DNA of 64,000 nucleotides, taken from a virus. The stretch is taken from the IMG/VR virus record IMGVR_UViG_3300034374_004935, positions 19,639 to 83,638 of that record. The stretch is one strand, 5' to 3'. This document shows positions 3,184 to 6,545 of this stretch, one piece after another. The translations under genes were made by a program, and so were the position numbers. The notes beneath the pieces are model-generated. The model ran no database searches. It was not told the DNA's origin and was given only the letters and a program-made list of their open reading frames with translations. Each line of letters opens with the position of its first letter. The stretch's first letter is position 1.

Positions 3184-3420
3184 AGCATTGATGAGCCATA
3201 GCGATTTATATTGTTATGGCTCAATTTTATAATTACCTGTAGTATCATAAGAATAGGGTCTAAAATCAGGAGACAATGCTATCTTATGTTTCGCTTTTGG
3301 CAATGAGCGACAAGTTAGGCATACTAAATATAGCTTCGGCTTTAGTATGTAGTATCCTATTGGTGGAGCTGACTAACCTAATCATTGCCTTTTTTATTTT
3401 ATAACTTAATACATATTATT

Positions 3421-3651
3421 ATGACTGTTTTCAATACAATAAAAAAAGCTGAACACTACGTTGATTATAAAAACAAAAGTAAAGGTGTTCGTAATCATAA
3501 TTGGTTCAGCGGATATATGTGGCAATATCTTGAGTATAAAATTGATTATGATAATAAACGTGTCATTAAAATGGGCGGATCTGATGGTTGTGGTTGTGGA
3601 TGTGATATGTATACTTTTCATTATCGTGAAGTAGTTGGTAGAATTAAATAA
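3421..3651 (+). CDS. hypothetical protein with CGCGC motif
   Basis: ORF 3385-3651; likely start ATG at 3421 after an AT-rich leader. Confidence 0.7.
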   Translation: MTVFNTIKKAEHYVDYKNKSKGVRNHNWFSGYMWQYLEYKIDYDNKRVIKMGGSDGCGCGCDMYTFHYREVVGRIK

Positions 3652-3661
3652 ATTAATAATT

Positions 3662-3778
3662 ATGAAAAAGATTGTAGTAACACAACAAGAAATTCAAGAG
3701 GCTTGCAAAAAGCAAGTCTATCGTGATAAGTCTAAGTACTATCGCAAGAAGAAGCATAAAAATGGCAGTACCACATAG
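3662..3778 (+). CDS. 38-aa basic peptide, ArfA/BrfA-like (MKKIVVTQQEIQEACKKQVYRDKSKYYRKKKHKNGSTT)
   Basis: Translated by hand; C-terminal YxRKxKH resembles ArfA 'SYMRKGKH'; A-rich leader. Confidence 0.6.
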   Translation: MKKIVVTQQEIQEACKKQVYRDKSKYYRKKKHKNGSTT

Positions 3779-3835
3779 GAATGATAGCTCTTATGATGGG
3801 TCTGGAATGTATAGGTTCGAATCCTATTACTGCCA
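3764..3835 (+). ncRNA. tRNA-like element 1 (acceptor stem and T-arm; D and anticodon arms replaced by one hairpin)
   Basis: GGCAGTA/TACTGCC-A acceptor stem; ATAGG-TTCGAAT-CCTAT T-arm; central CCA-CATAGGA...TCTTATG-A-TGG hairpin. Confidence 0.7.
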
Positions 3836-3865
3836 CTAAATCATTTACTGCTGAATGGTAAATGT

Positions 3866-4004
3866 ATAGTACACAAGAATGTTAAGAATTGAATTTCTTG
3901 TATCAATAGATCTGTAAATTAAGAAGCACACTCTATACTTATTTAATTAAGAATGATATCGACTCCAGATGAGCATGAATTCCTGGATAGTTCTTGTGTA
4001 CTAT
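3866..4004 (+). other. structured element closed by a 14-bp perfect inverted repeat
   Basis: ATAGTACACAAGAA (3866-3879) / TTCTTGTGTACTAT (3991-4004). Confidence 0.7.
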
Positions 4005-4037: not shown

Positions 4038-4469
4038 ATGAACATTTTAAATCGAAAGTTTACATTAAGCATAACAACTTTTCCTATTATAGGATTAGCA
4101 ATTGGAAGAACTTCTTATAAAAAAGTAGATTCTACAAGAAAAGCAATTAAAACTACAACGTTTTTACTACACATTATATGTTTTAGTATAGAACTTAGTT
4201 CTAAAAAACTTATTGCTAGACAAGAAAACGAATTTATTCCTAAAAAGAAAACAAAGAAAAAGACATTTATAGCTAAATTGATAGCTATGATTACTTTATT
4301 TTGCGGTCTTATGGCAGGAACAGCTTTGTATGAAGCTGCTAGACCTAGTACCGATATTTATGGAGCAAATGCTTTGATAATGGTATCAGTATTATTTACA
4401 ACATTGTTTATAGTATTAGGAATATCTTATCTTTCTATGGATCCAAATGAAAAGTATAAATATGTTTAG
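4038..4469 (+). CDS. membrane protein, unknown function
   Basis: At least two hydrophobic helices in the C-terminal half. Confidence 0.7.
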   Translation: MNILNRKFTLSITTFPIIGLAIGRTSYKKVDSTRKAIKTTTFLLHIICFSIELSSKKLIARQENEFIPKKKTKKKTFIAKLIAMITLFCGLMAGTALYEAARPSTDIYGANALIMVSVLFTTLFIVLGISYLSMDPNEKYKYV

Positions 4470-4710: not shown

Positions 4711-4971
4711 ATGTTATTAAAATTAATCTTTACCCATTTATTGGGTCTAGGTATAGTCACGCCTATGAATGAGAAAAATGATGACCGCGATTTGTATTAT
4801 CTTTATGTAATAAAAGATAAAACAGCTGAAGTATTTGTCTATGAACATTGCTACGAAGAAGAAATATTATATTATATTCAAACTAATGGAAACTTCCAGT
4901 ATAATGAATGTTTTAGATTAGTAGATAATGAAGTTGTAGATGACTGTAGAATAGTAGCTAATACTGAATGA
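4711..4971 (+). CDS. hypothetical protein with hydrophobic N-terminus
   Basis: 86-aa ORF with ATGA overlap to the next gene. Confidence 0.65.
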   Translation: MLLKLIFTHLLGLGIVTPMNEKNDDRDLYYLYVIKDKTAEVFVYEHCYEEEILYYIQTNGNFQYNECFRLVDNEVVDDCRIVANTE

Positions 4972-5597
4972 TTATGAAAAATATATTGCTTATAGTAATG
5001 ATGGGAATAGGATTGATATCTTATTCCCAATCTTCCATTGATTGGGGAGAATACGAAAAATCAAAAATCAGTAAAGTATGTGCAAATGCTAAATGGCAGA
5101 CTACACAAAATGTAACTTATGATGGAAGCTATAGAATTATAGATTATCCTTGGGGAGATGTTCCTGAGAATATTGGTGTATGTACTGATGTAATTATTAG
5201 AGCTTTTAGAGCTGTTGGTATAGATTTACAAGAACACGTACATAAATCTGTAGTTAAAAATCATAAATATTATTATCCTAAACCTAAACCAGGATATGGA
5301 TTGAAACCTGATGCTAATATTGATCACAGACGTGTAAAAATATTACATAAATATTTTAAATTACATTTTCCTGAAGCTGAATTAGGACTATATGACACTT
5401 GGATGCCAGGTGATGTAATAATTTGGCAGGATTGGCATATTGGTATACTAATTGACGAAAAGGTTGAAGATACTGATAGATATTATTGTGTTCACAATAT
5501 GGGATTAGGACCTGTTAAAGAAGATTTATATTACGATGTAATTGTTCCTAGTGAATATAATATAAAAGTGTTTAGAGTTTTAAAATTTTATTTATGA
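4968..5597 (+). CDS. DUF1287/YijF-family NlpC/P60-like exported protein
   Basis: Signal peptide; 'YPWGDVP..GVCTDVIIRAFRAVGIDLQ', 'DANIDHRRV', 'PGDVIIW..HIGI', 'HNMGLGP'. Confidence 0.85.
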   Translation: MIMKNILLIVMMGIGLISYSQSSIDWGEYEKSKISKVCANAKWQTTQNVTYDGSYRIIDYPWGDVPENIGVCTDVIIRAFRAVGIDLQEHVHKSVVKNHKYYYPKPKPGYGLKPDANIDHRRVKILHKYFKLHFPEAELGLYDTWMPGDVIIWQDWHIGILIDEKVEDTDRYYCVHNMGLGPVKEDLYYDVIVPSEYNIKVFRVLKFYL

Positions 5598-5934: not shown

Positions 5935-5966
5935 AAGACCTAGGAGTAAAATCCTAGGTCTTATTT
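5935..5966 (+). terminator. hairpin / probable terminator
   Basis: AAGACCTAGGA-GTAAAA-TCCTAGGTCTT followed by ATTT. Confidence 0.55.
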
Positions 5967-5980
5967 AAAAACTTGATACT

Positions 5981-6229
5981 ATGTTGATATATCAATATAA
6001 AATAACAGCAGTATTAGACGACTCCCACGTAATAATAGTAAATCTATTTACAGAATCGGATATGGAAAATAATATCCTAGAAAAAGAAAACTATATGATG
6101 AATCTATTAGACGAAGGTCTAATACCTGAAGAAATCGAATTTGAAAAAGTTGGAACCTTTGATAGTTCCAGTAAATATTTCCAGTTAGCATGCCAAGGAA
6201 TAATGCGTGCTGTTGAATACCCTAACTAA
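5981..6229 (+). CDS. hypothetical protein
   Basis: 82-aa acidic ORF. Confidence 0.65.
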   Translation: MLIYQYKITAVLDDSHVIIVNLFTESDMENNILEKENYMMNLLDEGLIPEEIEFEKVGTFDSSSKYFQLACQGIMRAVEYPN

Positions 6230-6257: not shown

Positions 6258-6348
6258 AGCCAAGTAGTTTAACGGTAAAACATATACACAAAAAATGGTA
6301 AATAAAGTTTTGTTGTATAAATTTTAGGTTCGAGTCCTAATTTGGCTT
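6258..6348 (+). ncRNA. tRNA-like element 2 (canonical acceptor, D and T arms; anticodon arm replaced by an extended stem-loop)
   Basis: AGCCAAG/TTTGGCT acceptor; TA; GTTT-AACGGTA-AAAC D-arm; TATACA-CAAAA...TTTTG-T-TGTATA; TTAGG-TTCGAGT-CCTAA T-arm; no encoded CCA. Confidence 0.75.
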
Positions 6349-6545
6349 CGATATACTTGAAAGACCATACATTGAATTGAGTCTTTAGTATAACATTTTA
6401 ATAAGCTATTGCTATTAGCATCGTCAAAAAAATAATAGTAGGCAATTGTATAAGTATGTGTGAACTTATACTCTTATGGACTTTATAAGTCTGATCTAAA
6501 ACACACAAAAATCTATATTTATTAATTATTAAAAACTATCCAAAA

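What the first reader, a model, noticed from the sequence alone, without database searches (positions are those of the whole stretch)
3662..3835. ArfA-like ribosome-rescue peptide whose stop codon lies inside a tRNA-like element
Seen: an ORF missing from the track encodes a basic 38-aa peptide with 'KSKYYRKKKHK'. The first base of a tRNA-like acceptor stem (G3764) falls exactly at the codon boundary after N34, and the stop (3776-3778) lies inside the tRNA-like fold. Known: ArfA carries YxRKxKH, and arfA/brfA are expressed from non-stop mRNAs (RNase III cleavage or an internal terminator), so protein accumulates only when tmRNA is limiting. RNase P recognises the acceptor stem and T-arm. Inference: RNase P cleavage at 3764 would create a non-stop mRNA that retains the full motif. 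This would be a phage-encoded, trans-translation-sensing rescue or ribosome-binding factor controlled by a tRNA mimic.
Basis: partly seen in the sequence, partly recalled or inferred. Interest (0 to 1): 0.78.

Follow-up and report, generated by a model that had tools for sequence, protein, structure and literature searches.

The report
Small phage gene overlapping tRNA-like RNA
A real, conserved 38-codon phage gene for a very basic peptide ends 15 bases inside a conserved tRNA-shaped RNA, but most relatives of the gene have an ordinary stop codon, so a ribosome-rescue role controlled by cutting at the tRNA shape remains an untested idea.

Summary
ORF 3662-3778 encodes MKKIVVTQQEIQEACKKQVYRDKSKYYRKKKHKNGSTT. 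Codon 35 starts at G3764, the first base of a tRNA-like RNA (3764-3835), and the TAG stop (3776-3778) lies inside it.

- **The gene is real.** It belongs to Pfam DUF7230 and shows synonymous-site variation. Its core is 33 residues, and the tail after K33 varies freely.
- **The RNA is real but is not a decoding tRNA.** Covariation supports an acceptor stem, a T arm and one long hairpin.
- **ArfA membership fails.** There is no PF03889 hit and no KGKGS motif. A weak, non-random resemblance remains: hhalign probability 11-21%, above every shuffle. The KH motif that ArfA and BrfA share is conserved.
- **Coupling is not consistent.** Only 7 of 119 homologous loci (4 tRNA-like, 3 internal terminators) lack a stop ahead of a 3'-end-forming structure. 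A close relative (L004) has its own stop and terminator. Two of 12 bacterial DUF7230 genes do carry an arfA/brfA-style internal terminator.
- **RNase P cleavage is plausible but was not testable.** No RNA data were listed.

My best reading is a tolerated overlap of two separate genes. The tmRNA-gated rescue-factor reading stays open at about 0.2. This scan has already flagged DUF7230/ArfA-like genes in at least 60 other genomes.

The parts
3662..3778 (+). Gene for a 38-aa small basic protein of family DUF7230. The conserved core is codons 1-33 (3662-3760); the tail NGSTT and the stop are unconserved.
   Evidence: PF23876, E 7.7e-6, 26.4 bits against a cut-off of 27; phrog_2701, phrog_6310; homologues; third-position bias; family conservation.
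3776..3778 (+). TAG stop codon of the ORF, at positions 13-15 of the tRNA-like RNA, in the 5' strand of its long hairpin.
   Evidence: In L002 and L003 the A-to-G change at element position 14 keeps the pair as G-U and turns TAG into TGG, moving the stop to TGA in the loop.
3764..3835 (+). Conserved tRNA-like RNA. Acceptor stem 3764-3770 with 3828-3834; helix 3771-3773 with 3797-3799; hairpin 3774-3780 with 3789-3795; invariant 8-nt loop ATGATAGC 3781-3788; T arm 3811-3827; discriminator A3835. It has no canonical D or anticodon arm.
   Evidence: 100% paired, 5 compensatory pairs; in the ARAGORN cloverleaf, pair 25-37 is broken in 5 of 8 sequences; L012 copy: CCA/TGG becomes CTG/CAG.
3763..3764 (+). 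Inferred RNase P cleavage site, between U-1 and G+1 of the tRNA-like RNA and between codons 34 and 35.
   Evidence: Inference from the acceptor/T-arm structure. Position -1 is T in 8 of 12 copies. No experimental or RNA-seq evidence.
3421..3651 (+). Upstream 76-aa ORF (cluster c2), probably in the same transcript. It also lies upstream of the DUF7230 gene in L016.
   Evidence: no family hit; synteny; a terminator-like site at 3192-3223 and a promoter-like site at 3205-3233 lie upstream of it.
3842..4004 (+). Two stem-loops after the tRNA-like RNA: an 8-bp hairpin at 3842-3864 and a long closed hairpin at 3866-4004. Neither has a U tail.
   Evidence: MFE -37.2 kcal/mol, z -1.87, so only weakly better than shuffles.
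4038..4469 (+). 143-aa ORF (cluster c10). This is the gene that most constantly follows the tRNA-like RNA in the window's clade (window, L002, L004, L030).
   Evidence: (only weak hits to membrane-protein families, all below their cut-offs).

Best explanation
Two separate, real genes are packed against each other.

**The protein gene.** It encodes a DUF7230-family small basic protein. Its functional part is the 33-residue core MKxIxVTQxEIxxAxKxxV(Y/H)RNKKKY(Y/T)RKxKHK. The few residues after K33 are free to vary.

**The RNA gene.** It encodes a conserved tRNA-like RNA with an acceptor stem, a T arm, and one long hairpin in place of the D and anticodon arms. It begins three bases after codon 33.

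**The overlap.** No stop codon lies between the two genes, so the reading frame runs 15 bases into the RNA gene and ends at a TAG that is part of the RNA's hairpin.

**How it would work (inferred, not shown).** Both genes are probably on one transcript. If host RNase P matures the 5' end of the tRNA-like RNA, every transcript cut before it is translated loses the stop. That message yields a 34-residue product that tmRNA would tag. Uncut transcripts yield the 38-residue protein.

**My reading.** This is a tolerated by-product of gene packing that may lower the peptide's yield. It is not a conserved control device. By analogy only, the peptide most likely acts by binding RNA or the ribosome through its Lys/Arg-rich tail carrying the KH motif.
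For: - **Gene reality and free tail.**. Tails after H32 range from 1 to 65 residues, mostly 5-8.
- **The RNA is an independent unit.** It is nearly invariant where its flanks diverge completely. It occurs without an abutting DUF7230 gene in 8 of 12 contigs.
- **Its constant neighbour is a different gene.** In the window's clade that neighbour is downstream gene c10. The DUF7230 gene abuts the RNA in the window, L002 and L003. In L004 it lies 1.3 kb upstream with its own stop and a terminator-like hairpin plus T run. In L030 it is absent.
- **Ordinary stops dominate.** 112 of 119 homologous loci have no stop-removing structure.
- **The stop and the junction drift.** The stop sits at different places in the four overlapping cases, giving products of 38, 40, 40 and 52 aa. 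The junction is shifted by 4 nt in L016.
- **One transcript is likely.** No promoter-like or terminator-like site lies between the ORF and the RNA.
Against: - **The overlap recurs in a diverged lineage.** L016 is 67% identical in protein and its RNA has a different variable arm, yet it shares the upstream gene c2. The overlap may therefore be old and maintained.
- **Other stop-less designs occur in the family.** Three further phage loci (L029, L170, L179) and 2 of 12 bacterial DUF7230 genes (L197, L202) have a terminator starting right after KHK, ahead of the stop. That design is otherwise described for arfA and brfA (PMC8012679 and PMC6881298, passages). A stop-less design with a terminator should be costly if it were accidental.
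- **The RNA and the gene travel together.** The tRNA-like RNA has a DUF7230 gene on the same contig in 10 of 12 contigs, in varying order. This hints at a functional link.
- **The ArfA resemblance is not pure composition.** hhalign against ArfA exceeds every shuffle.
Confidence: 0.5

Rival explanations
1. [quoted passage not shown]
For: - KH motif in a basic C-terminal tail: H32 in 73 of 90 members and Y.R[KRH].KH in 71 of 90. The KH role in ArfA and BrfA comes from PMC8012679.
- hhalign against ArfA: probability 20.7%, P 1.1e-3 and probability 10.8%, P 2.9e-3. 0 of 200 column shuffles and 0 of 4x100 block shuffles reach the real score.
- Stop-removing structures begin right after KHK in 7 phage loci and 2 of 12 bacterial loci.
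- The overlap recurs in L016.
- The cleaved message would keep the full core.
Against: - No PF03889 hit in any search, no ArfA chain in the PDB profile search, and no KGKGS motif.
- The hhalign probability fell when the ArfA profile was made more diverse.
- Bacterial DUF7230 against ArfA gives 0.6%.
- 112 of 119 homologous loci have ordinary stops, including the close relative L004.
- No tmRNA or SmpB gene is present in the virus record, which is 64% complete.
Confidence: 0.2
2. The peptide and the tRNA-like RNA are functional partners in a small ribonucleoprotein. One version would resemble SmpB bound to the tRNA-like domain of tmRNA, with a basic-tailed protein standing in for the missing anticodon arm. 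Adjacency would serve co-expression.
For: - 10 of 12 contigs with the RNA also carry a DUF7230 gene.
- Nine of those genes lie within 1.3 kb on the same strand.
- The order varies: upstream in 6 contigs (window, L002, L003, L016, L031, L004) and downstream in 3 (L024, L012, L217).
- The RNA lacks an anticodon arm but keeps an invariant 8-nt loop.
- The peptide is very basic.
Against: - About 100 DUF7230 loci have no such RNA within the fetched 1.5-3 kb flanks, so the peptide does not need it.
- All 12 contigs may be related phages in which both genes lie in one small early region of about 7 kb, so proximity is weak evidence.
- L030 and L035 have the RNA without the gene in 7.5 and 11 kb of fetched DNA.
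- No binding evidence exists.
Confidence: 0.1
3. The tRNA-like RNA is a processing signal ('punctuation') for the early polycistronic transcript. RNase P and RNase Z cuts separate the upstream small genes from downstream gene c10 and set mRNA ends. The overlap with the DUF7230 stop is incidental to that role.
For: - The element sits directly after an ORF end and directly before c10 or another ORF in most contigs.
- It has no decoding arm.
- A second altered tRNA-like RNA lies 2.4 kb downstream.
Against: - The invariant 8-nt loop and the long hairpin are conserved well beyond what a cleavage signal should need.
- There are no RNA end data.
Confidence: 0.12
4. The ORF is a chance open frame and only the RNA is real.
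For: It is short (38 codons), has no Shine-Dalgarno sequence, and sits in AT-rich DNA.
Against: - 78 cluster representatives in a 1.84-billion-protein library at E<=1e-3.
- Strong third-position bias.
- A Pfam family and PHROG families match it.
- 0 of 25 long ORFs in the window have a Shine-Dalgarno sequence either.
Confidence: 0.01

Closest known systems
DUF7230 (Pfam PF23876; PHROGs phrog_2701 and phrog_6310), an uncharacterised family of small basic proteins of phages and some bacteria
   Same: The same 33-residue core. The peptide scores E 7.7e-6, and near-identical homologues P0001-P0006 carry PF23876.2 in the precomputed table. 33 of 37 aligned relatives match it.
   Different: The peptide scores 26.4 bits, just under the cut-off of 27. 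Here the tail is supplied by a tRNA-like RNA gene rather than by a short hydrophilic tail with its own stop. Nothing is in print under this name (0 papers).
ArfA (YhdL, Pfam PF03889), the RF2-dependent alternative ribosome-rescue factor of beta- and gammaproteobacteria
   Same: Small size and a basic C-terminal tail with Y-x-R-K-x-K-H, including the KH motif. A weak but non-random profile similarity. The possibility of synthesis from a stop-less message.
   Different: No HMM match. No KGKGS motif, although all 30 ArfA sequences I collected have it. The host is probably not a proteobacterium. Truncation would come from RNase P at a tRNA mimic rather than RNase III or a terminator. Stop-less design is not conserved in the family. 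Activity is untested.
BrfA (YqkK) of Bacillus subtilis (PMC6881298)
   Same: A small protein unrelated in sequence to ArfA that still shares a KH motif in the channel-binding tail and a 3'-end-forming element inside its ORF (passages). This shows that such factors arise by convergence.
   Different: BrfA uses an intrinsic terminator. It is about 62-71 residues long and restricted to Bacillus. I did not compare sequences, because I held no BrfA sequence.
tRNA genes and tRNA-like RNase P substrates co-transcribed with mRNAs. Examples from recall, not from any call: mitochondrial tRNA punctuation with incomplete stop codons, and MALAT1 mascRNA.
   Same: An acceptor/T-arm fold placed at the end of a coding region, where its excision would define the mRNA 3' end.
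   Different: This RNA is not a decoding tRNA: Rfam gives 25 bits against a gathering score of 29, and it has no anticodon arm. No poly(A)-type completion of a stop is known in bacteria, so a cut message would be truly stop-less.
tmRNA tRNA-like domain with SmpB
   Same: A tRNA-shaped RNA without an anticodon, found next to a gene for a small protein with a basic tail.
   Different: There is no mRNA-like domain, and neither a tmRNA nor an SmpB match. A partnership is pure conjecture.

Membership tests
ArfA (PF03889) | Match to the family HMM at or above its cut-off (25.5 bits) | tested here: not met
   No PF03889 hit at E<=10 for the peptide, for 37 family members, or for the whole virus record. 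E. coli ArfA scores 89.7 bits as a positive control.
ArfA (PF03889) | KGKGS(Y/F)xR motif that lies in the mRNA channel (PMC6299226, passages) | tested here: not met
   The peptide has DKSKYYRKKKH. All 30 diverse ArfA sequences I collected carry KGKGS. Only Y-x-R is shared by every one of them.
ArfA (PF03889) | KH motif in a Lys/Arg-rich C-terminal tail (shared by ArfA and BrfA; PMC8012679) | tested here: met
   K31-H32 are present. In the family K31 occurs in 82 of 90 members and H32 in 73 of 90.
ArfA (PF03889) | Profile-profile homology | tested here: inconclusive
   hhalign probability 20.7% (16 enterobacterial ArfA) and 10.8% (30 diverse ArfA). Every shuffle scores lower. Bacterial DUF7230 against ArfA gives 0.6%.
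ArfA (PF03889) | RF2 recruitment through a beta-strand and a hydrophobic residue (F25), and RF2-dependent peptidyl-tRNA hydrolysis on non-stop ribosomes | not testable with these tools
Y/H20 could correspond to F25, but that is only an alignment guess.
arfA/brfA-type gene design (stop-less message) | A 3'-end-forming element inside the ORF, ahead of the stop, and conserved among homologues | tested here: not met
   The geometry is present here (element start 3764, stop 3776). It is found in only 7 of 119 homologous phage loci and 2 of 12 bacterial ones. Actual cleavage is not testable.
DUF7230 (PF23876) | Match to the family HMM | tested here: met
   E 7.7e-6 and 26.4 bits against a cut-off of 27, so formally 0.6 bits short. 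Homologues 86-97% identical carry PF23876.2, and 33 of 37 relatives match.
tRNA (Rfam RF00005) | Score at or above the gathering threshold, and a cloverleaf with D arm and anticodon arm | tested here: not met
   25.0 bits against 29. In the ARAGORN anticodon stem, pair 25-37 is unpaired in 5 of 8 sequences. The competing hairpin 11-17/26-32 has 2 compensatory pairs.
tRNA (Rfam RF00005) | 7-bp acceptor stem and 5-bp T stem with a GGTTCGAATCC-type loop | tested here: met
   All cells are paired. There are 2 compensatory pairs in the acceptor stem and 1 in the T stem.
RNase P substrate | Cleavage at the 5' end of the acceptor stem | not testable with these tools
   No RNA run was listed. The structure and U-1 (8 of 12 copies) are compatible.

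The most novel reading that the evidence does not exclude
[quoted passage not shown] In this phage lineage the stop-less message that gates such factors is made in a new way: RNase P cuts at a non-decoding tRNA mimic that starts right after the KHK codons. A bolder version holds that the tRNA mimic, which travels with the gene in 10 of 12 contigs, is the peptide's RNA partner in a minimal SmpB/tmRNA-like pair.
Probability: 0.2. Interest if true: 0.8.

Novelty: new variant of a known kind. Interest (0 to 1): 0.55.

Why it matters
**If the rescue reading is right.** Phages would carry their own back-up ribosome-rescue or channel-binding factor. A tRNA mimic plus RNase P would be a third way, after RNase III and internal terminators, of making a self-limiting stop-less message. 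That would tie phage tRNA regions to translation quality control. It would also give DUF7230, a family with 78 cluster representatives at 50% identity in the library search and no literature, a testable function.

**If the packing reading is right.** The locus still yields two solid annotations. One is a conserved small gene that is easily missed. The other is a new covariation-supported tRNA-like RNA that tRNA finders mislabel as tRNA-His(AUG).

Tried and rejected
- **Cloverleaf reading.** I rejected ARAGORN's tRNA-His(AUG) cloverleaf. Its anticodon-stem pair 25-37 is broken in 5 of 8 sequences. There is no G-1/C73 pairing of the kind I recall as the tRNA-His identity feature: position -1 is T and the discriminator is A.
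- **Chance ORF.** Rejected.
- **ArfT.** I considered it and dropped it. Its tail is KKGGSTNKK (PMC6299226, passages), and NCBIfam gives no name to the bacterial DUF7230 proteins.
- **PDB.** A profile search at E<=10 found only two irrelevant hits.
- **Named phages.** A search of named phage genomes found one 72-nt match to an unannotated 635-kb phage.
- **Protein Atlas.** It returned only unnamed clusters and DUF7230.
- **Host phylum.** Pfam found nothing at E<=0.01 in the 280-aa protein that another note calls a type IX secretion cargo. The host phylum therefore rests only on 0 of 25 long ORFs having a Shine-Dalgarno motif.
- **RNA evidence.** No RNA holder was listed. Read laying was not used, because DNA contigs cannot show RNA ends.
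- **Wasted scan.** My genome-contig scan for diverse ArfA returned only Enterobacteriaceae. I obtained diversity through the genome search instead.
- **P0027 lead.** Its tail reads like a translated T arm, suggesting an ORF running into a true tRNA. I found no such arrangement in 52 related loci and could not fetch its own contig.
- **Parser gaps.** The first parser for bacterial loci failed. A later one recovered 12 of 14 loci; L199 and L205 were not recovered.
- **Loci left out.** Eight near-duplicate loci of the first set (L008, L010, L011, L018, L020, L026, L027, L028) were left out of the terminator scan. Two broken ORFs (L159, L182) were dropped.
- **Same-contig duplicates.** Six of the 119 counted entries lie on the same contigs as other entries (L149/L007, L150/L012, L225/L153, L234/L167, L240/L166, L242/L173). 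They therefore represent 113 distinct places.
- **Supplements.** Supplementary files of the papers were not opened. The ArfA/ArfT/BrfA alignments there (for example Supplementary Fig. 2 of PMC6881298) might bear on the motif comparison.

Full report
**What is there.**
- The window is part of an 83.6-kb IMG/VR virus record estimated 64% complete. GC content is about 31%.
- It carries a replication module on the + strand and giant virion proteins on the - strand.
- None of 25 long ORFs has a Shine-Dalgarno motif. From general knowledge this fits a host such as Bacteroidota, but the host is not shown.
- ORF 3662-3778 reads MKKIVVTQQEIQEACKKQVYRDKSKYYRKKKHKNGSTT. Codon 34 ends at 3763, and TAG is at 3776-3778.
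- ARAGORN calls a tRNA at 3764-3836. Rfam's tRNA model gives 25.0 bits, below its gathering score of 29.

**The ORF is a real gene of family DUF7230.**
- It hits Pfam PF23876 (E 7.7e-6, 26.4 bits, cut-off 27) and two PHROGs of unknown function.
- A word-indexed search found 14 close homologues. An exhaustive profile search found 78 cluster representatives at E<=1e-3.
- Differences from relatives fall mostly on third codon positions. Against L024 there are 13 synonymous and 2 non-synonymous codons; against L021, 13 and 5.
- The family consensus is MKTIEVTQQEIQEATKPNVYRNKKKYTRKKKHK. Conservation is T7 in 86 of 90 members, E10 in 85, A14 in 80, Y26 in 89, R28 in 87, K29 in 85, K31 in 82 and H32 in 73.
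- After K33 nothing is conserved. Tails after H32 range from 1 to 65 residues and are mostly 5-8.
- The name DUF7230 occurs in no paper of the searched library.

**The tRNA-like element is a real structured RNA but not a decoding tRNA.**
- I found it in 12 viral contigs: window, L002, L003, L004, L024, L016, L030, L031, L035, L012, L215 and L217.
- It is almost invariant even where the flanks are unrelated.
- On eight distinct sequences, a structure of acceptor stem, 7-bp hairpin (positions 11-17 with 26-32, 8-nt loop ATGATAGC) and T arm pairs in all 152 cells. Five pairs change on both sides, and 0 of 500 shuffles reach this.
- The L012 copy adds two more compensatory changes, CCA/TGG to CTG/CAG, which extend the hairpin.
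- ARAGORN's cloverleaf fails: its anticodon-stem pair 25-37 is unpaired in 5 of 8 sequences.
- Two copies (L016, L035) carry an extra small hairpin in the variable region.
- The acceptor/T-arm stack is what bacterial RNase P needs in minimal substrates (recalled knowledge). Position -1 is T in 8 of 12 copies.
- No sigma-70-type or TAnnTTTG promoter motif and no terminator lies between the ORF start and the element. Co-transcription is therefore likely, and cleavage at 3763/3764 is plausible. Both are inferences.
- No RNA run was listed for this DNA.

**Is the peptide ArfA-like?**

Membership fails:
- There is no PF03889 hit for the peptide, for 37 relatives, or for the virus record at E<=10.
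- No ArfA chain appears in a PDB profile search at E<=10.
- The KGKGS motif, present in all 30 diverse ArfA sequences I collected from 301 genomes, is absent.

A resemblance remains:
- hhalign of 37 family members against 16 enterobacterial ArfA gives probability 20.7% and P 1.1e-3 over 40 columns.
- Against the 30 diverse ArfA it gives 10.8% and P 2.9e-3 over 23 columns of the basic tail.
- The real scores exceed all 200 column shuffles and all 4x100 local block shuffles. Lysine richness alone therefore does not explain the match.

Three cautions apply:
- The probability fell with a richer ArfA profile.
- hhalign is erratic at this length. It gives only 3.1% between phage and bacterial DUF7230, which Pfam unites, and 0.6% between bacterial DUF7230 and ArfA.

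From the literature:
- The only outstanding similarity between ArfA and the unrelated BrfA is a KH motif that sits in a pocket of the mRNA entry channel (review PMC8012679, passages).
- The authors of PMC6881298 state that such adapters arose independently several times (passages).
- The conserved K31-H32 in a basic tail is therefore a fair functional lead, not proof.

**Is the coupling conserved?** The stop lies inside the tRNA-like RNA in four loci:
- The window, L002 and L003 are near-identical. In L002 and L003, TAG has become TGG and the stop is the TGA in the loop.
- L016 has a protein 67% identical. There the element starts at the third base of codon 33, and the frame reads through to 52 aa.

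Elsewhere the RNA and the gene are separate:

| Locus | Arrangement |
|---|---|
| L004 | Gene with its own stop and terminator-like hairpin; RNA 1.3 kb downstream |
| L031 | RNA 0.25 kb downstream of the gene |
| L024, L012, L217 | RNA 0.2-1.1 kb upstream of the gene |
| L215/L015 | Same contig, farther apart |
| L030, L035 | RNA present, no gene in the fetched DNA |

In the window's clade the RNA's constant neighbour is the downstream 143-aa gene, not the DUF7230 gene.

Across all homologous loci I examined the counts are:

| Set | Loci examined | Stop inside tRNA-like RNA | Internal terminator ahead of stop | Terminator overlapping stop |
|---|---|---|---|---|
| Overlap cases | 4 | 4 | 0 | 0 |
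| | 63 | 0 | 3 (L029, L170, L179) | 2 |
| | 52 | 0 | 0 | 1 |
| Total | 119 (113 distinct places) | 4 | 3 | 3 |

No ORF runs into a true tRNA, although several lie in tRNA clusters.

**A lead from earlier notes of this scan.**
- The scan has flagged DUF7230/ArfA-like genes in at least 60 other genomes. Some of those notes describe internal terminators or ORFs running into tRNAs. These are unchecked AI notes, so I tested what I could.
- DUF7230 occurs in 2 of 401 sampled Pseudomonadota genomes and in 13 of 251 genomes of one order.
- Of 12 bacterial genes I could parse, two (L197, L202) have a canonical GC-rich terminator that begins at the K after KH and ends well ahead of the stop. The other ten showed none by my strict pattern.
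- The arfA/brfA-like design therefore does occur in the family, but as a minority trait in my samples.

**Verdict.**
- The anatomy is confirmed and both parts are real.
- The simplest account is two independent genes pushed together, with an unconstrained peptide tail absorbing the overlap. RNase P processing, if it occurs, would make part of the messages stop-less as a side effect.
- The rescue-factor reading is not excluded. It gains some weight from the KH tail, the shuffle-tested ArfA resemblance, the recurrence of the overlap in L016, and the stop-less designs elsewhere in the family.
- It is weakened by failed membership, by ordinary stops in 112 of 119 relatives, and by the close relative L004.
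- I put the packing reading at 0.5, selected gating of an ArfA-like factor at 0.2, a processing-signal role of the RNA at 0.12, and a peptide-RNA partnership at 0.1.

Noticed in passing
window 6258-6349: A second altered tRNA-like RNA. Rfam tRNA gives 47.3 bits with a 27-nt stretch where the 7-nt anticodon loop should be. ARAGORN calls it tRNA-Leu(CAA), or tRNA-Lys(UUU) with an 18-nt intron when introns are allowed. A counterpart exists in L002 at 5951-6033 (Rfam 41.8 bits; ARAGORN 'tRNA-???').
   Followed up: partly
12 viral contigs (window; L002, L003, L004, L012, L016, L024, L030, L031, L035, L215, L217): The tRNA-like RNA travels with a DUF7230 gene on the same contig in 10 of 12 contigs, but in varying order and distance. 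This could be shared location in a small early-gene region or a functional link.
   Followed up: partly
L197 1480-1710 and L202 (unnamed Pseudomonadota genomes): Bacterial DUF7230 genes (consensus NPVAKHAxxFNKAxVHxDKKKxxKRGYxKHKG) with a GC-rich intrinsic terminator that starts at the K after KH, inside the ORF. The frame then runs on through an unconserved hydrophobic tail. In L202 the frame stays open for 316 codons.
   Followed up: partly
L201, L206 (bacterial DUF7230); L132, L133, L139, L140, L142, L145-L148 (ArfA): Many full-length ArfA proteins and some bacterial DUF7230 proteins end in ...AA, like the end of the ssrA tag as I recall it. This may mark read-through products for degradation.
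   Followed up: no
P0053, P0061, P0085 (N-terminal extensions); P0027 and P0018 (tails): Gene callers extended some DUF7230 ORFs through sequence that reads like a translated T arm (RGSNPLSRS, MQVRILP). In those phages the gene probably starts right after, or runs into, a tRNA gene. I could not fetch the DNA.
   Followed up: partly
window 3866-4004: A long hairpin closed by a 15-bp stem directly after the tRNA-like RNA. Its folding energy is only weakly better than shuffles (z -1.87).
   Followed up: partly
window, 25 ORFs of 200 aa or more: None has a Shine-Dalgarno-like motif in the 20 nt before the start. Leaders are A/T-rich.
   Followed up: yes
L005 3446-3478: A DUF805b RNA motif (Rfam RF02914, 42.8 bits, above its gathering score) lies about 330 nt downstream of a DUF7230 gene in a related viral contig.
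   Followed up: no
window 4968-5597: A 209-aa protein with a strong DUF1287 match (E 2.4e-41) in the early small-gene region.
   Followed up: no
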